A DNA stretch of 24,567 nucleotides from the IMG/VR virus record IMGVR_UViG_3300037470_000100, positions 1 to 24,567 of that record, one strand, 5' to 3'. The translations under genes and the position numbers were made by a program. This document shows positions 19,402 to 24,567 of this stretch, one piece after another. The first letter of the stretch is position 1, and the number at the start of each line of letters is the position of its first letter. The notes beneath the pieces were generated by a model. The model was given only the letters and a program-made list of their open reading frames with translations, had not been told where the DNA came from and made no database searches. The DNA comes from a virus. Taxonomy: Duplodnaviria > Caudoviricetes.

Positions 19402-19614
19402 ATGATTAGCCGGGCCATTCACTACGCTATCGAGCGGGCCGCAAGCCCCGCCGACGTGACGGCGTTCGCCCTCGTGCTGGCGACCGTCGCGGAAGCCTTG
19501 CCCCCAATCTCGGCGGGGCTCTCGATCGTGTGGCTCTCGATCCGCATATGGGACTCCCGCCCGGTGCGCGAGTGGACCGGGCGTCCCGTTTATCGCAGGG
19601 AGCGGGACGAGTGA
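19402..19614 (+). CDS. Putative holin
   Basis: 70 aa with hydrophobic segments VTAFALVLATVA and LPPISAGLSIVWLSIRIW plus a charged C-terminus; first gene of the lysis region. Start uncertain (19351, 19372 or 19402). Confidence 0.65.
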   Translation: MISRAIHYAIERAASPADVTAFALVLATVAEALPPISAGLSIVWLSIRIWDSRPVREWTGRPVYRRERDE

Positions 19615-20840
19615 GGCTCTCGCTCGATCGGGCGGCCGAGATTGTCGCGACCTATGAGGCGGCGGGCTCGGTGCGGGCGGCGGCCAGCGCCTACGGGTGC
19701 GGCAAGTCGTATTTCCACAAGCTCCTGACGGCGGCGCGCGCCGCCGAGCACACGCCCGACGGCTACCACGCCGCCCGCGTCTCGACCACGCTCGACAAGG
19801 CGGGCGAGGTGAAGGCGACGAGCGTCGTCGCGAAGCGCGGCCCGGGCGAGGCGCACGTCGTGCCAGAGGGCCACGGCGTGAAGCGCGTCTCGGCTCTTCT
19901 CGACTCCGACGGCCGCGTGATTCAGAAGTGGGTGATCTCGGCCGCCGGCGCCGACGCCCTCGACGACGCGATCGCCACGGTGCGCGCCGAGCTTGCCGAC
20001 GCCGAGCGCCTCGCGCCCCTCGCGGCCCCGGCGCACACCGACGACGACTTGCTTACCGTCTATCCCGTCGTCGATCAGCACCACGGGCTCTATGCGTGGG
20101 CGCCCGAGGCGGGCGAAGACTTCGACCTCGCCACGAGCGAGGCGCTCTTGAAGAGCCAGCTTCGCCAGCTTGTCGCGCTCGCGCCGCCCGCGCGTCGGGC
20201 TCAAATTCTCGGGCTCGGCGACTTCCTGCACGCCGACACGCAGGACGCGAAGACGCCCGCGAGCGGACACTTCCTTGACCGTGACGGACGGCAGTCGAAG
20301 GTGATCCGCTCGGGCTTCGGCTTGCTCCGGTGGGCGATCGACCTCGCGCTCTCGAAGCACGAGAGCGTGAGCGTGACGATCCGAGCGGGCAATCACGACC
20401 CCATGGCCGCGATCTATCTCTCGCACATGATCGACGTTGCTTATGAGAACGAGCCGCGCGTGAGCGTCGATCTCGACCCCTCGCTCTTCTGGTTTGCCAC
20501 GTTTGGGCGCGTGCTTCTCGCCGCGACGCACGGGCACACCGTCAAGCCCGCTGACTTCGCCGCCGTGATGGCGGCCGAGTGCGGCACGGCGTGGGGCGAT
20601 ACCGAGCACCGGCACGGCTTTCAGGGGCACATTCACCACGAGACGTTGATCGAGCGGGGCGGCGCGATCGTCGAGACGTTCCAGACCATCGCGGCGAAAG
20701 ACGCATGGCACGCGAGCAAGGGTTACTCGTCGGGCCGCTCAATGACCGCGCTCACCTTTCACCGCGAGCTAGGCCGCGTGGGGCGCGTGTGGGCGCCCGT
20801 GCTTCGCCGTCGGCGAGGCGCCCGGGTGATCGAGCTATGA
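19611..20840 (+). CDS. Calcineurin-like metallophosphoesterase with N-terminal HTH
   Basis: All five motifs are present: DQH, GDFLH, GNHD, THGH, GHIHH. N-terminal GSVRAAASAYGCGKSYFHKLL looks like an HTH. GTGA overlap with the holin. Confidence 0.85.
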   Translation: MRLSLDRAAEIVATYEAAGSVRAAASAYGCGKSYFHKLLTAARAAEHTPDGYHAARVSTTLDKAGEVKATSVVAKRGPGEAHVVPEGHGVKRVSALLDSDGRVIQKWVISAAGADALDDAIATVRAELADAERLAPLAAPAHTDDDLLTVYPVVDQHHGLYAWAPEAGEDFDLATSEALLKSQLRQLVALAPPARRAQILGLGDFLHADTQDAKTPASGHFLDRDGRQSKVIRSGFGLLRWAIDLALSKHESVSVTIRAGNHDPMAAIYLSHMIDVAYENEPRVSVDLDPSLFWFATFGRVLLAATHGHTVKPADFAAVMAAECGTAWGDTEHRHGFQGHIHHETLIERGGAIVETFQTIAAKDAWHASKGYSSGRSMTALTFHRELGRVGRVWAPVLRRRRGARVIEL

Positions 20841-21388
20841 CGCCCGTCGTCGGCTTCTGTGGCCGCTCTGGCGCCGGCAAGAGCACGGCGGCGGCGGCGC
20901 TTGTCGAGGCGGGCTTCGTGCGCGTGAAGTTCGCTGGGGCGCTCAAAGTCATGATGCGCGCCTTCTACTTAGCGGCCGGGCTCTCAATCGACGAGATCGA
21001 GCGGCGGATCGAGGGCGACTTGAAGGAAGAGCCCGACGAGCTTCTCGGCGGGCGCACGCCCCGCTTCGCAATGCAGACGATCGGCACCGAGTGGGGCCGC
21101 GAGATCGTCTCCCCCGACCTGTGGTTGCGCGCATGGCGCGGCCGCGTCGAGTCCGTGCTTCGCGCCGGGGGGCGCGTCGTCGTGGACGATCTTCGCTTCG
21201 CCAACGAGGCCGAGGCCGTGCGCCGGCTTGGCGGCCGCGTCGTCGAGATCACCGGCCGCGAGAAGGCCGTCGAGGCGCACGCGAGCGAGTCGCGCGACTT
21301 CGCGCCCGACATGACGATCAGCAACACCGGGACGGAGGCCGAGCTTCGCGGTGCCGCCCTTTACATCTTCGGGAGTGACGAGACATGA
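20837..21388 (+). CDS. Deoxynucleoside monophosphate kinase
   Basis: P-loop GRSGAGKST; FAGALK, TPRFAMQTIGTEWGR, DDLRFANEA and HASE motifs; ATGA overlaps at both ends. Confidence 0.9.
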   Translation: MTPVVGFCGRSGAGKSTAAAALVEAGFVRVKFAGALKVMMRAFYLAAGLSIDEIERRIEGDLKEEPDELLGGRTPRFAMQTIGTEWGREIVSPDLWLRAWRGRVESVLRAGGRVVVDDLRFANEAEAVRRLGGRVVEITGREKAVEAHASESRDFAPDMTISNTGTEAELRGAALYIFGSDET

Positions 21389-22410
21389 CCATCGCAACGC
21401 CCGCCGCCTACCGGGCCGCCGCCGAGGAAGTCGGTTGCACCGTGGCGACGATCCGTGCCGTGTTCCGCGTCGAGGCGTCGGGGCGCTTCTTCAATCCCGA
21501 CGGGACTCTCGTGCGCCGCTTCGAGCCGCACCACTTCCCGGGCGCGCACTGGCCGACGCTCGGTTTCGCGCCGCGCGCGGCGGCGCCGTGGCGCGCGTCG
21601 AAGCGGCTCTCGAAGCGCCGGCGGGCGGCCATGTATGATGCCGCCGAGCGGATCGACGCCGAGGCGGCGGCCCGGGCCGCGTCGTGGGGCGCGGCTCAGA
21701 TAATGGGCTTCAATCACGCGGCCGCCGGCTACGGCTCGGCCCTCGACATGGTGCGCGCCTTCGAGGCGTCGGCCGACGAGCACGTGATCGCCTTCGCCCG
21801 CTTCGTCGTCTCGAAGGGGCTCGACTCGGCGCTTCGCGGGAGCGACTGGCACACCTTCGCCACGGGCTACAACGGCACCGGACAGGCCGCCGCTTATGCC
21901 GCCAAGATCGAGAGCTCCTTCCGGCGCGAGACGGGGGGCAGGAAGTCGCCCGCCGTGGTGCGCGATGGCGCCGCAGGCGCGAGCGTCGTCGCGCTGCAAG
22001 AGCACCTCGTCGCGGCGGGCTACCACGTCGAGAGCGACGGCACCTTCGGCCCCGCCACCCGGGCGGCCGTCGTGCGGTTTCAGGGCGACCACGGGCTCGC
22101 CGCCGACGGCGTGGCGGGCGCCCGCACGTGGGCCAAGCTCCGCGAGGTTGCCTCGAATAGCAGCGATCTCGGCCCCACTTTTAGCGCGGCCCCGCTCCCC
22201 ACGCCGAAGCCTCAGCAGGGCGCGGCCGAGCGCCTCGTCGAGCGCGCCGTCGGCAGCGTCGGCCCGATGGGCGCGGCGGGCATGGGCGGCGCCCTTCTCG
22301 ACCGGCTCGGCGACCACGCCGTGACGATCCTCGTTGGCGGCGTGGTCGCCGCCGGGCTCGTGGTGCTCGCCGTGTGGGCGGCGCCGAAGATCAGGGAGTC
22401 GATCGCGTGA
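21385..22410 (+). CDS. Endolysin: N-acetylmuramidase (DUF3380-like) + peptidoglycan-binding domain + C-terminal hydrophobic helix
   Basis: VEASG, FEPHHF, SWGAAQIMGFN and FATGYNG motifs; PG-binding DGTFGPAT..AV..FQ..HGL.ADGVAG..TW; C-terminal VTILVGGVVAAGLVVLAVWA. Confidence 0.93.
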   Translation: MTIATPAAYRAAAEEVGCTVATIRAVFRVEASGRFFNPDGTLVRRFEPHHFPGAHWPTLGFAPRAAAPWRASKRLSKRRRAAMYDAAERIDAEAAARAASWGAAQIMGFNHAAAGYGSALDMVRAFEASADEHVIAFARFVVSKGLDSALRGSDWHTFATGYNGTGQAAAYAAKIESSFRRETGGRKSPAVVRDGAAGASVVALQEHLVAAGYHVESDGTFGPATRAAVVRFQGDHGLAADGVAGARTWAKLREVASNSSDLGPTFSAAPLPTPKPQQGAAERLVERAVGSVGPMGAAGMGGALLDRLGDHAVTILVGGVVAAGLVVLAVWAAPKIRESIA

Positions 22411-22532
22411 CTCACATGCTGGCAGCGTTGTTCGGCTATCGGGCCGCCGATCTCGTCGGTGAGATCGAGCGCAACTTTCACCTCTTCCGCCCGCGTCGGC
22501 GGCGCCCCTCGGTGAAGGAGTGGAGAACATGA
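22407..22532 (+). CDS. 41-aa hypothetical protein in the lysis cassette (not in the ORF track)
   Basis: AGGGAG RBS 8 nt upstream; GTGA overlap with the endolysin stop and ATGA overlap with the i-spanin start. Sequence: MTHMLAALFGYRAADLVGEIERNFHLFRPRRRRPSVKEWRT. Confidence 0.65.
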   Translation: MTHMLAALFGYRAADLVGEIERNFHLFRPRRRRPSVKEWRT

Positions 22533-22816
22533 TTGCCCTACCGTCGGCCGCCGCCGTGCTCGGCGTCGTCGGCCGCAAGACGTTCCTCGCCGCCGCTGGC
22601 GGCTTCGTCGCCGGGCTCGTGGCAATGCGCCTCGTCGCCGGGCTCGTGTTGATCCCGGCGGCCGAGGAAGTCGCCCGGGCAGAGGTGCGCGCCGAGTATG
22701 CGATCGAGGCGGCGCGCGCCGTCACCGAGGCCGCGCGAGAGTCGCGCCAGATCGAAAGGGAAGTCGGCAATGCGACGGATTCTGATCTCCGCGACGCTCT
22801 TCGCGGCGCTCGCTAG
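22529..22816 (+). CDS. Inner-membrane spanin (Rz-like)
   Basis: GGAG RBS; N-terminal TM segment followed by a helical Ala/Glu/Arg region; overlaps the downstream lipoprotein gene. Confidence 0.7.
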   Translation: MIALPSAAAVLGVVGRKTFLAAAGGFVAGLVAMRLVAGLVLIPAAEEVARAEVRAEYAIEAARAVTEAARESRQIEREVGNATDSDLRDALRGAR

Positions 22817-23042
22817 CGCGGCGTGCACGACGCCCGCCCCCGTGGCGGTGGGCGACTATTGCGCCCGGGCGAGCCGTGTCGAGCTTCGCGACCTTTGCGC
22901 CGTCGGCGAGGCGCCCGCGCTCTCGCCCGACGGGTGGGGCTCGTGCTCGCTCACCACGCGCGCCGACGCGGTGCGACTTGCGGCCGAGGCCCGCAAGTAT
23001 GACCGGGCGTGCCCGGCGCCGAGGGGGGCTTTCGGCGGGTGA
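22770..23042 (+). CDS. Outer-membrane spanin lipoprotein (Rz1-like)
   Basis: Signal peptide MRRILISATLFAALASAA-C with a lipobox Cys; Pro/Cys-rich; partly overlaps the i-spanin in another frame. Confidence 0.75.
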   Translation: MRRILISATLFAALASAACTTPAPVAVGDYCARASRVELRDLCAVGEAPALSPDGWGSCSLTTRADAVRLAAEARKYDRACPAPRGAFGG

Positions 23043-23068
23043 CACGCGGTGCCGCTTCGTGTAACTCC

Positions 23069-23102
23069 GGGGCGTCGGGTGATTCCGGCGCCCCTTCCCT
23101 TT
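23069..23102 (+). terminator. Terminator closing the late/lysis transcript
   Basis: Stem GGGGCGTCGG/CCGGCGCCCC followed by TTCCCTTT. Confidence 0.7.
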
Positions 23103-23175
23103 GTGCAACTCTTTGTGCATCGGGGCGATCTATGGGCCGCGAAGAGCCCGCAAGCCCTTGAAGTCGCAGGACTTC

Positions 23176-23214
23176 GGCGACGTGGCGGAGTGGTTACGCA
23201 GCGGACTGCAAATC
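23176..23214 (+). tRNA. 5' half of tRNA-Cys(GCA), partial; att core rather than a functional tRNA
   Basis: GGCGACG-TG-GCGGAGTGGTTACGC-A-GCGGA-CTGCAAA-TC gives the acceptor 5' strand, D arm and anticodon GCA (23208-23210). Similarity stops 2 nt after the loop; there is no T arm or 3' acceptor strand. Confidence 0.88.
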
Positions 23215-23251
23215 GTCTCACAGTGGCACATTGCGACACGTTCCGCACATA

Positions 23252-23264
23252 TATCAACGCCTTG
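23252..23264 (+). promoter_or_regulatory. IHF binding site
   Basis: TATCAACGCCTTG matches WATCAANNNNTTR exactly. A weaker site, CTTCAAGGGCTTG, is on the minus strand at 23151-23163. Confidence 0.7.
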
Positions 23265-23278
23265 CGCCGAGCCCTCGC

Positions 23279-23318
23279 ACACCGCGAAACACCCCGAAAC
23301 ACCGCTTAACACCGTTTC
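23279..23318 (+). repeat. Four helically phased 10-bp repeats (candidate excisionase/RDF sites)
   Basis: ACACCGCGAA ACACCCCGAA ACACCGCTTA ACACCGTTTC; ACACC starts at 23279, 23289, 23299 and 23309. Confidence 0.7.
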
Positions 23319-23368
23319 TTAGTGCAAAACTTTGTGCGGATCAGTGTCACACGGCGTCACATTTGGAC

Positions 23369-23397
23369 TCGACATTGTGCCAGCGAGCGCCGATAAT
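23369..23397 (+). promoter_or_regulatory. Sigma70-like promoter
   Basis: TCGACA-N17-GATAAT (5/6 and 5/6 matches), upstream of the AGGAG RBS at 23421-23425. Confidence 0.6.
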
Positions 23398-23434
23398 CGG
23401 GGCATCGACTCACCCGGATTAGGAGTCCGTGCAC

Positions 23435-23578
23435 ATGACCGCTTGGACGAAGAAGAAAGAGGCAGAGTTTAAGCGCCTCGATCGGAAGGTGCTCAACGGC
23501 AAGGCAACCCGTCGCGAGATCGAGCGCGCCTTCGACTTGAAGCGCGAGCGCGCCGAGGCCCGGAAGGCTTCGGCATGA
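23435..23578 (+). CDS. 47-aa basic hypothetical protein (not in the ORF track)
   Basis: AGGAG RBS; sequence MTAWTKKKEAEFKRLDRKVLNGKATRREIERAFDLKRERAEARKASA; ATGA overlap with the next ORF. Confidence 0.75.
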   Translation: MTAWTKKKEAEFKRLDRKVLNGKATRREIERAFDLKRERAEARKASA

Positions 23579-23772
23579 CCGCCCGCGACGCATGGCGGCA
23601 GTGCTACCGCCGCGCCCGGGTGATCGCGGCCACCGGGCCGCGCTTCTTCCATATCCTCGCGATCGCGGGTGACGACGCGGCCGCCGCCGGTTTCGGCTCG
23701 ATCCGCTTCCGCGTCACGGGCCGCCGCGTCGAGCTTGCGCGCCGCCAGCCGTGGCGGAAGGTGACGGCATGA
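23575..23772 (+). CDS. Hypothetical protein (65 aa)
   Basis: ATGA overlaps at both ends. Confidence 0.65.
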   Translation: MTARDAWRQCYRRARVIAATGPRFFHILAIAGDDAAAAGFGSIRFRVTGRRVELARRQPWRKVTA

Positions 23773-24005
23773 GCGCCCGCCGCATCCCCGGTGCCCGAAA
23801 GTGTGTCGGCGGCTATAAGCCGATCATCGCGCACCCCGACGGGCGCACCGAAGTCGTCGGGCTCCGCTTCCGTCCCGCTGATGGCGGCCGCGACATGCGC
23901 CGCGCGTCAGGCCGGAAACTCGAGACGCGCGACGAGGCGATCGCCTACGCGCAACGGGTGATCGACGCGCGGGCCGAGCGCGCAAGCCGCGAGGCGACGG
24001 AATGA
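23769..24005 (+). CDS. Hypothetical protein (78 aa)
   Basis: ATG23769 overlaps the previous stop; AAGGTG upstream; ATGA overlap downstream. Confidence 0.65.
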   Translation: MSARRIPGARKCVGGYKPIIAHPDGRTEVVGLRFRPADGGRDMRRASGRKLETRDEAIAYAQRVIDARAERASREATE

Positions 24006-24217
24006 GCGAGCCGAAGGTGACATTTCACCGCGACGGGCGCGTGAGCGTCGAGGGCGTCACGGTGGGGCACGCCGAACACTTTCCCTACGACCCGACGCCG
24101 TGGCACTTTCGGCCGATCGACGGCCGTGGGCACGCGGGCGCGCAGCGGCGCGTCGTGCTCTCCCGCCCCACGCTTCGCGCCTACGCTAGACTCCAGAAAG
24201 AGGGGAAGACGGAATGA
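24002..24217 (+). CDS. Hypothetical protein (71 aa)
   Basis: GAGG RBS; ATGA overlaps at both ends. Confidence 0.65.
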   Translation: MSEPKVTFHRDGRVSVEGVTVGHAEHFPYDPTPWHFRPIDGRGHAGAQRRVVLSRPTLRAYARLQKEGKTE

Positions 24218-24417
24218 AAATCAGCGAAGCGAAGGCGGCGCAAGCCGCGATCGAAGAGGCGGCCCGCCGCCTTAATGCGGAGATCGAGGGGGCCGCCGAG
24301 CGCGGGCTTGCGATCGAGATCGAGATTACCGAGCAAGGGTGGATCACCCGCGCCACCCCGACTCCGCGCGTGCGGGTGAGCGCCCGGATCGCGCCGGGCG
24401 ACGTTGAGGAGGGGTGA
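24214..24417 (+). CDS. Hypothetical protein (67 aa)
   Basis: Purine-rich RBS; ATGA overlap with the previous ORF. Confidence 0.65.
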   Translation: MKISEAKAAQAAIEEAARRLNAEIEGAAERGLAIEIEITEQGWITRATPTPRVRVSARIAPGDVEEG

Positions 24418-24421
24418 GGCC

Positions 24422-24567
24422 GTGACCGAAGACTTCGCCCGCATCAACGCCCCGCGCGTCGAGAAAATCCTTTACGCCCTCGACGTGATCGAGAAGAGCG
24501 CCCGATCGCAAAAGGCCCTCGACCGCGTGCCCGGCTTGCTGGCGCCCGTGGCCGAGCGCCTCGCGGC
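24422..24567 (+). CDS. Hypothetical protein, truncated by the window end
   Basis: GGAGG/GAGG upstream of GTG24422; frame MTEDFARINAPRVEKILYALDVIEKSARSQ... stays open to the end. Confidence 0.55.
   Translation, partial: MTEDFARINAPRVEKILYALDVIEKSARSQKALDRVPGLLAPVAERLA

What the first reader, a model, noticed from the sequence alone, without database searches (positions are those of the whole stretch)
23176..23214. attP carries the 5' half of tRNA-Cys, the reverse of the usual arrangement
Seen: 39 nt matching a tRNA-Cys from base 1 to just past the anticodon loop, with no 3' half. Known: tRNA-targeting phages usually duplicate the 3' part so the host promoter still drives the restored gene, and crossover in the 7-nt anticodon loop is a common tyrosine-integrase site. 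Inference: after integration the intact tRNA-Cys, often single-copy, would be built from the phage 5' half and separated from its own promoter, so it would depend on prophage transcription. The fragment also predicts a host tRNA-Cys starting GGCGACG with a CGTCGCC 3' acceptor strand.
Basis: partly seen in the sequence, partly recalled or inferred. Interest (0 to 1): 0.8.

Follow-up and report, generated by a model that had tools for sequence, protein, structure and literature searches.

The report
Phage docking site swapped tRNA halves
This phage carries an exact copy of the front half of a bacterial cysteine tRNA gene at what is likely its chromosome-insertion site, so insertion would cut the host tRNA off from its own promoter (a rare but known arrangement), while its closest relative found carries the usual back half at the same spot.

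Summary
Confirmed. 23176-23214 is an exact copy of tRNA-Cys(GCA) nt 1-39: 69 exact genome matches, 66 of them in full genes. It ends 2 nt past the anticodon loop. It sits after the lysis genes, between arm-type repeat pairs and two IHF-like sites, as in a tyrosine-integrase attP. The integrase is not on this 24.6-kb contig.

The arrangement is known. Islander lists 159 of 3919 islands with a 5' fragment, and four pelagiphages were shown to integrate this way at tRNA-Cys.

Two things are added. (1) The closest relative found (G022, terminase 73%) has the same arm pair, position, target and orientation, but carries the 3' half. The half was apparently swapped without inverting the element. (2) Many 5'-type relatives carry a copy of the host tRNA promoter (10 of 10 in one integrase family), but this phage has none at host spacing. 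Its only candidate overlaps the late terminator and is statistically weak.

No lysogen junction was found, so integration and phage-driven tRNA expression remain inferred. Interest is moderate.

The parts
23176..23214 (+). 5' part (nt 1-39) of host tRNA-Cys(GCA); identity block of the attP
   Evidence: 69 exact genome matches, 66 in full genes
23206..23212 (+). anticodon loop, likely 7-nt crossover segment
   Evidence: identity ends 2 nt after it; 49 of 52 other 5' fragments end at nt 38-41; G022's 3' block starts at nt 26, so the two blocks share only nt 26-39; the crossover itself is inferred
23099..23119 (+). upstream (P) arm-type direct-repeat pair, 12-nt spacing
   Evidence: 19 of 22 identical to the pair in G022's attP; pair motif found only in G022 and the window among 318 loci
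23242..23249 (-). single inverted arm-type site
   Evidence: inverted repeat I22; G022 has an inverted copy at a similar distance from its downstream pair
23318..23338 (+). downstream (P') arm-type direct-repeat pair
   Evidence: 85% identical to the upstream pair; aligns with G022's downstream pair
23252..23264 (+). IHF-consensus site (consensus recalled)
   Evidence: the only perfect match on either strand of the window
23149..23161 (-). second, relaxed IHF-like site
   Evidence: 2 of the 3 relaxed matches in the window flank the core; inverted repeat I9
23279..23313 (+). three 10-nt-phased repeats, possibly excisionase (RDF) sites
   Evidence: family D2; function inferred only
23069..23101 (+). 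hairpin and pyrimidine tail closing the lysis operon (terminator-like)
   Evidence: -23.7 kcal/mol, z -2.95
23039..23067 (+). weak candidate replacement promoter for the rebuilt tRNA; start site would fall near 23074, inside the hairpin's 5' arm
   Evidence: 9.9 bits, tied 4th-5th on the + strand of the window; 14, 25 and 26 of 300 shuffles reach it; its -35 overlaps a GTGAC motif repeated 5 times at this side in G022
23369..23397 (+). sigma-70-like promoter for the small rightward genes
   Evidence: 10 of 12 consensus; mean 0.0 in shuffles
23435..24417 (+). five small ORFs (47, 65, 78, 71, 67 aa) on the P' side, no family; a sixth runs off the contig end
   Evidence: no PHROG or Pfam hit for the four longer ones; all five also encoded on a 38,091-nt contig
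21385..23042 (+). lysis cassette on the P side (endolysin and two membrane or spanin-like ORFs)
   Evidence: endolysin PHROG hits; 'spanin-like' is my inference, with no family hit; same order in G022

Best explanation
This is likely the attP of a temperate siphophage of Alphaproteobacteria: it holds an exact copy of tRNA-Cys nt 1-39 between two repeat pairs, so a tyrosine integrase predicted to lie just beyond the contig end would cross over in the anticodon loop and rebuild the tRNA at the far end of the prophage, where a phage-side promoter would have to drive it. The host promoter would be left with a 39-nt stub at attL that points into the small early genes. The most likely promoter is the one at 23039-23067 (about 0.35 on its own). 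Its transcript would start inside the late terminator hairpin and so escape termination, then be trimmed by RNase P. The site probably arose from a 3'-type attP like G022's, without inverting the element. Shown: sequence identity, anatomy, the sister phage, and paired attL/attR in other elements. Inferred: the integrase, the crossover point, integration, the promoter and the direction of the swap.
For: Exact block ending at the loop. Arm pairs, an inverted site and IHF-like sites around it. G022 is syntenic (terminase 73%, portal 59%, capsid 54%, endolysin about 50%) and has the same arm pair at the same place. It carries a 414-aa PF00589 integrase about 1 kb beyond the site, after small rightward genes. 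Relatives of that integrase occur on contigs of 12,864, 18,351 and 32,870 nt, the same lengths as contigs with relatives of the window's endolysin; this is a length match only. Both flanks are in raw assemblies: P arm plus tRNA nt 1-29 on one unitig in X1, and nt 10-39 plus P' in X1, X2 and X3. A 38,091-nt contig encodes both a 2-residue variant of the endolysin and the right-side proteins (length match). Other 5'-type elements at tRNA-Cys have a 5' stub at attL and a full tRNA behind an element-borne promoter at attR (G001, G007, G008, G009, G010). PCR-verified precedent exists in pelagiphages.
Against: No integrase in the window. No homologue of G022's integrase was tied to a 38,091-nt contig among the 120 listed of 358 hits or the members of the six closest clusters. 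No attL or attR of this phage was found (0 hits; 15 loci, none with this phage's genes). No host-type promoter lies in the 75 nt before the fragment (1.5 bits, against 7 or more in 10 of 10 elements of the P0001 family), and a terminator lies upstream. The candidate promoter is reached by 5-9% of shuffles, and its -35 may be an att accessory site. Arm-to-loop distances differ from G022 by +33, about -43 and -47 nt, so the same integrase geometry is not guaranteed. No single Logan unitig spans the core.
Confidence: 0.72

Rival explanations
1. The site is a true attP, but the rebuilt tRNA is not transcribed from the P arm. The phage would supply a full tRNA-Cys elsewhere in the unseen part of its genome (tRNA-dependent lysogeny, as presumed for HTVC019P), or would rely on leaky read-through of the late terminator.
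For: No host-spaced promoter and a terminator upstream. HTVC019P carries a full tRNA-Cys away from attP. About 14-18 kb of the genome is unseen.
Against: A perfect copy of nt 1-25 is not needed for crossover and would be expected to drift if unused; G022 matches only 7 of 25 there. G022 has no full tRNA in 40,000 of 40,507 nt scanned. 12 of 16 relatives with an upstream integrase also keep a perfect 5' half without a host-spaced promoter.
Confidence: 0.12
2. An orphan attP: the phage has lost its integrase and no longer integrates.
For: No integrase in the window, and none tied to the 38,091-nt contig. The promoter is missing or eroded. The P' arm pair is more degenerate than G022's.
Against: The 39 nt have no mismatch, and the IHF site and upstream arms are intact. 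G022's gene order puts the integrase beyond where this contig stops, and an X2 unitig runs 2.1 kb past that end.
Confidence: 0.09
3. A junction between two tandem elements: the fragment is attL of a second element on the right.
For: Tandem insertions at tRNA-Cys appear among fetched loci (for example L091 and L328). Unitigs break at the core.
Against: Both arm pairs match the two arms of a single attP in G022, which has the same gene layout on both sides. Depth is similar left and right in X1 and X2.
Confidence: 0.04
4. A decayed full phage tRNA gene, or an assembly chimera through a shared tRNA repeat.
For: The core is a high-depth shared repeat in the samples.
Against: The break from exact identity to background (13 of 35) is sharp and falls at the loop, as in 49 of 52 other fragments. 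Each flank joined to the core is present on unitigs, and either join implies a 5'-type site. Arm sites lie on both sides.
Confidence: 0.03

Closest known systems
Pelagiphages HTVC021P, HTVC022P, HTVC121P, HTVC201P (Zhao et al., bioRxiv 10.1101/410191; abstract and passages read, supplements not seen)
   Same: attP core overlaps the 5' end of tRNA-Cys(GCA), and the gene is rebuilt from the phage 5' part. Their genomes match exactly the same 39 positions at 89.7%.
   Different: They are T7-like podoviruses of SAR11 with the integrase next to attP. The word 'promoter' occurs 0 times in that main text. The window is a GC-rich siphophage with no adjacent integrase.
Islander islands with a 5' tDNA fragment (PMC4383910, parts 1-2 of 3 read); Zhao and Williams 2002, J Bacteriol 184:859 (title seen in a reference list; content recalled, not read)
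   Same: Displaced 5' fragment and anticodon-centred crossover; 159 of 3919 islands, and 9 of 88 in S. meliloti (PMC11476347).
   Different: The 2002 title describes a reversed target orientation, and as recalled that element carries a promoter. L145 (5' type) and L328 (3' type), with 46% identical integrases, fit such an inversion. The window and G022 keep the same tRNA orientation relative to arms and genes, and the window lacks a host-spaced promoter.
Canonical 3'-half attP, represented by sister phage G022 (L282)
   Same: Same arm pair, position after the lysis genes, target tRNA and orientation.
   Different: G022 carries nt 26-74 (44 of 49 match a host gene), which leaves the tRNA under the host promoter. 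Arm-to-loop spacing differs.
tRNA-dependent lysogeny (Guerrero-Bustamante and Hatfull, PMC10865867; passages read; author names recalled)
   Same: The lysogen would depend on phage DNA for an essential tRNA.
   Different: There the core is about 10 bp, nothing is rebuilt and a full phage tRNA complements. Here 39 nt rebuild the gene, and no phage tRNA is seen in the window.

Membership tests
5'-fragment (reverse-polarity) tRNA-targeting attP | identity to a host tRNA from nt 1 through the crossover segment, with no 3' part | tested here: met
5'-fragment (reverse-polarity) tRNA-targeting attP | element DNA on both sides, with arm-type repeats flanking the core | tested here: met
5'-fragment (reverse-polarity) tRNA-targeting attP | tyrosine integrase encoded by the element | tested here: inconclusive
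   absent from the 24.6-kb fragment; present about 1 kb beyond the equivalent site in G022; not tied to the 38,091-nt contig
5'-fragment (reverse-polarity) tRNA-targeting attP | integrated form with a 5' stub at attL and a full tRNA at attR | tested here: inconclusive
   not found for this phage; found for other elements at the same tRNA
5'-fragment (reverse-polarity) tRNA-targeting attP | some element-borne transcription of the rebuilt tRNA | tested here: inconclusive
   one weak candidate 108 nt upstream; no RNA test possible
Promoter-copy subtype (P0001-family elements; Zhao and Williams type as recalled) | host-type -35/-10 within 75 nt upstream of the fragment | tested here: not met
   1.5 bits, against 7.2-17.3 in 10 of 10 P0001-family sites
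Reversed-orientation elements | tRNA orientation inverted relative to 3'-type relatives | tested here: not met
   same orientation as G022 relative to arms and gene order; the window's own integrase is unseen
Canonical 3'-half attP | carries the tRNA 3' half | tested here: not met
   13 of 35 identity
tRNA-dependent lysogeny | short core (about 10 bp) that does not rebuild the tRNA | tested here: not met
   a 39-nt block from nt 1 would rebuild it
tRNA-dependent lysogeny | full phage tRNA of the same isotype | tested here: inconclusive
   none in the window; the rest of the genome is unseen

The most novel reading that the evidence does not exclude
A phage attP can switch from carrying the back half to the front half of the same tRNA without inverting, keeping its arm sites. 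In this phage the host's single tRNA-Cys would then be driven by a phage promoter that starts inside the late-operon terminator, which makes an essential host tRNA a prophage-controlled, addiction-like gene. The window and G022 would be a natural before-and-after pair.
Probability: 0.3. Interest if true: 0.62.

Novelty: new variant of a known kind. Interest (0 to 1): 0.4.

Why it matters
The 5'-half arrangement is known, but how it arises and how the orphaned tRNA is transcribed were not addressed in the passages I could read. A sister pair with shared arm sites and opposite halves makes both questions testable with two short attP fragments. The survey also shows element-borne near-copies of the host tRNA-Cys promoter at attR (36-37 of 45 nt identical in two pairs), which points to capture of host DNA by imprecise excision. 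It suggests tRNA-Cys is a favoured 5'-type target in Alphaproteobacteria (3 versus 10 fragments in 401 genomes, against 4% overall; small numbers). In practice the fragment narrows the host and predicts where the missing integrase lies.

Tried and rejected
Rfam over 20000-24567 gave only a chance microRNA hit. The terminase alone found no relatives in genome contigs. The exact 39-mer has 0 hits in viral contigs. A P'-specific 21-mer has 0 hits in viral and metagenome contigs. No RNA holder is listed among 8 runs, which says nothing on expression. Zero depth left of the core in X2-X4 is a filterable hole and was not used.

A -10-only remnant at 23131, sharing an 11-mer with two host upstream regions, was rejected: 125 of 1000 shuffles share an 11-mer. 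L191 looked like an attR with similar repeats but is a native single-copy host site next to pcm. L190's attL was not found; its second match is another full gene. G022's integrase had no match at E 1e-60 or better in 401 genomes of the order and none in 5 other endolysin-relative virus records. The Atlas gave no usable family for the 78-aa ORF (best 0.82). P0001 had no Pfam, PHROG or PDB hit; it is called an integrase from its alignment and BLAST link to L145's integrase.

Williams 2002 and Zhao and Williams 2002 are not held. Paper searches showed no report of a 3'/5' sister pair, but none was worded for exactly that, and most subscription papers are missing.

Full report
Context. The window is a whole 24,567-nt virus record. 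It encodes, on the + strand, terminase, portal, major head, connector, tail and tape-measure proteins, an exonuclease, a dNMP kinase and an endolysin. It holds no tRNA gene and no integrase. The fragment lies in a 393-nt intergenic gap of 59.5% GC (67-70% on either side), between the lysis cassette and five small rightward ORFs. Three of 8 listed runs hold more than half of the sampled words; all three are labelled sediment metagenome, and one may be the source.

The observation. The 39-mer has 69 exact matches in genome contigs. 66 of 69 are full tRNA-Cys(GCA) genes starting at its first base, nearly all in Alphaproteobacteria by record title: Acuticoccus, Amorphus, the Limibaculum-Thermohalobaculum group and low-GC marine single cells. 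Identity stops dead on the right in all 69, 2 nt after the anticodon loop (23206-23212). All 66 full genes have the predicted CGTCGCC acceptor strand. The gene is single-copy in 5 of 5 isolate genomes tested. The closest named endolysin relatives are in Rhodobacteraceae, so a GC-rich member of the Rhodobacterales is the likely host; this is inference.

Anatomy. A 12-nt-spaced direct-repeat pair lies upstream (23099-23119). A second pair, 85% identical, lies downstream (23318-23338), with one inverted copy at 23242-23249. The heptamer TTTGTGC occurs 4 times in the window, 3 of them here. The only perfect match to the recalled IHF consensus on either strand is at 23252, and 2 of 3 relaxed matches flank the core. 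This is the layout of a lambda-type tyrosine-integrase attP (established knowledge). Logan unitigs break inside the core because it is shared with host genes. One X1 unitig joins the P arm to tRNA nt 1-29, and unitigs in X1, X2 and X3 join nt 10-39 to P'. A 38,091-nt contig is listed for both an endolysin variant with 2 differences and all five right-side proteins; I infer one contig from the shared length.

The arrangement is known. Islander reports 159 of 3919 islands with a 5' fragment (PMC4383910, parts 1-2 of 3 read). In S. meliloti the count is 9 of 88 (PMC11476347, section 2.2). Zhao et al. verified by PCR that HTVC021P, 022P, 121P and 201P integrate with a core overlapping the 5' end of tRNA-Cys (bioRxiv 10.1101/410191, abstract and passages). 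These phages match the same 39 positions of the window. Their Fig. S2 is a supplement I could not see and may bear on upstream sequences. Zhao and Williams 2002 was seen only as a title; that its element carries a promoter is recalled. Earlier AI notes of this scan describe similar sites at other tRNAs; they pointed me to that paper and are not evidence.

Survey at tRNA-Cys. Patterns built to catch 5' fragments returned them in 5 of 9 and 31 of 32 viral loci (four contigs are in both sets or duplicate another), 8 of 9 genome loci and 10 of 10 metagenome loci. Of 52 distinct fragments, 49 end at nt 38-41. Many have a neighbouring integrase. Integrated forms with a stub at one end and a full gene at the other lie on one contig in G001 (41.5 kb), G009 (51.5 kb) and G007 (10 kb), and on separate contigs in G008, G010 and G011. 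In 401 genomes of G020's order, 3 had a 5' fragment and 10 a 3' fragment (each pattern misses about a quarter). Against Islander's 4% this gives p = 0.014, on small numbers.

The promoter. I trained a -35/-10 matrix on 49 high-GC host upstream regions and scored the 75 nt before the fragment on the element side. Scores reached 7 bits or more in 10 of 10 sites of the divergent P0001 integrase family, 4 of 16 sites with a PHROG-1-type integrase upstream, and 4 of 5 others. Host-side attL scored 16 of 20, random 75-mers 58 of 600, and downstream controls 0 of 24. Groups were assigned by hand; duplicates, four low-GC pelagiphage-like loci and a few unassignable loci were left out. In two pairs the element's promoter is a near-copy of the host's (37 and 36 of 45 nt); the other pairs gave 28, 18, 15 and 8 of 45, ungapped. 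The window scores 1.5 bits: it has no host-spaced promoter, and a terminator-like hairpin sits upstream. The best candidate is at 23039-23067 (9.9 bits, tied 4th-5th in the window). A start near 23074 would shorten the hairpin from -23.7 to -8.3 kcal/mol and detach it from the U tract. Against it, 14, 25 and 26 of 300 shuffles reach the score, and its -35 contains a GTGAC motif that G022 repeats five times on this side, where no promoter is needed. I put it at about 0.35.

The sister phage. An endolysin-alignment scan found L282 (G022, 40,507 nt). It is syntenic with the window: 21 of 29 window ORFs tested hit it, with terminase 73%, portal 59%, capsid 54% and exonuclease 57%. Right after its lysis genes it has the same arm pair on both sides (19 of 22 identical upstream) and an inverted copy. 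That pair motif occurs only in G022 and the window among 318 loci. Between the arms, in the same orientation, lies tRNA-Cys nt 26-74: 44 of 49 match a host gene, against 7 of 25 for nt 1-25. A 414-aa PF00589 integrase points back at the site from about 1 kb away, beyond small rightward genes, which is just past where the window stops. None of the other 40 close endolysin-relative loci had a convincing tRNA-Cys match within 4 kb. The two phages would thus integrate in the same orientation at the same loop but rebuild the gene at opposite ends. Arm-to-loop distances are 93 versus 60 nt upstream, and 114 versus 161 nt to the downstream pair. By contrast, L145 (5' type) and L328 (3' type), with 46% identical integrases, have the tRNA inverted relative to the integrase gene, which is the route named in the 2002 title.

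Mechanism. Shown: the sequence, the anatomy, the sister site and other elements' junctions. Inferred: Int bound to arm and core sites with IHF crosses over in the loop. attL keeps the host promoter and a stub facing the early genes. attR carries the P arm, the phage's nt 1-39 and the host 3' half, transcribed from a phage-side promoter. A plausible origin is imprecise excision of a 3'-type prophage that captured the host promoter and whole tRNA, followed by loss of the 3' half. This would explain the host-promoter copies in relatives. The direction of change is not tested, and in this phage the captured promoter is not recognisable.

Against this reading. The phage's own integrase was not found, even indirectly. 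No junction of this phage was found, and the promoter is unresolved. Orphan-attP and phage-tRNA readings therefore stay open.

Verdict. A real attP-type site of a known rare class. The same-orientation 3'/5' sister pair and the missing promoter make it a variant worth a test. Interest 0.4.

Noticed in passing
L072:10450-11772, L079, L081, L082, L076, L080, L156, L172, L174, L176: A family of about 420-440-aa integrase-like proteins (40-66% identical); no PHROG hit for the members tested, and no Pfam or PDB hit for P0001. They sit at 5'-type tRNA-Cys sites with TTCAGAAA-like arms and always with a host-type promoter; domain-based island finders would miss them.
   Followed up: partly
G001:C4:202295-243919: A 41.5-kb island in Amorphus coralli between a 5' stub and a full tRNA-Cys. 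It carries ABC-transport and hydrolase genes, a cytosine methylase and a cluster with two helicases, an MrfA Zn-binding-domain and a NERD-domain protein that looks defence-like; no virion genes matched.
   Followed up: partly
L076:2496-2534: 'Synechococcus phage Yong-M2-251' carries an alphaproteobacterial-type tRNA-Cys 5' half with a strong promoter next to its integrase, which suggests its real host may not be the cyanobacterium named. The same doubt applies to 'Pseudanabaena phage Pan1', whose endolysin is the best named match to the window's.
   Followed up: no
window 23038-23045, 23215-23240, 23344-23382: Repeated GTGAC/GTCAC and TGGCACA-like motifs flank the att arms and overlap the -35 of the early promoter; G022 has 10-nt-phased copies. 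They could be repressor operators or accessory att sites.
   Followed up: partly
window 23215-23435: No intrinsic terminator was found between the core and the early genes, so in a lysogen the host tRNA promoter would read into the prophage early operon unless blocked.
   Followed up: no
L073 (G002:C163, near 315-410): The 5' fragment in a Thermohalobaculum MAG is preceded by about five tandem 12-nt copies of the tRNA's first bases, either a repeated-integration scar or an assembly artefact.
   Followed up: no
L162-L166, L168-L171, L319-L321, L088, L142: A second widespread 5'-type family at tRNA-Cys in Rhodobacterales shares a conserved downstream arm motif beginning TATCAGGACA; its integrase was not identified.
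   Followed up: no
window 19530-21388: A DNA-repair-type exonuclease (metallophosphoesterase fold) and a dNMP kinase sit between the tail and lysis genes, conserved in G022 and L202.
   Followed up: no
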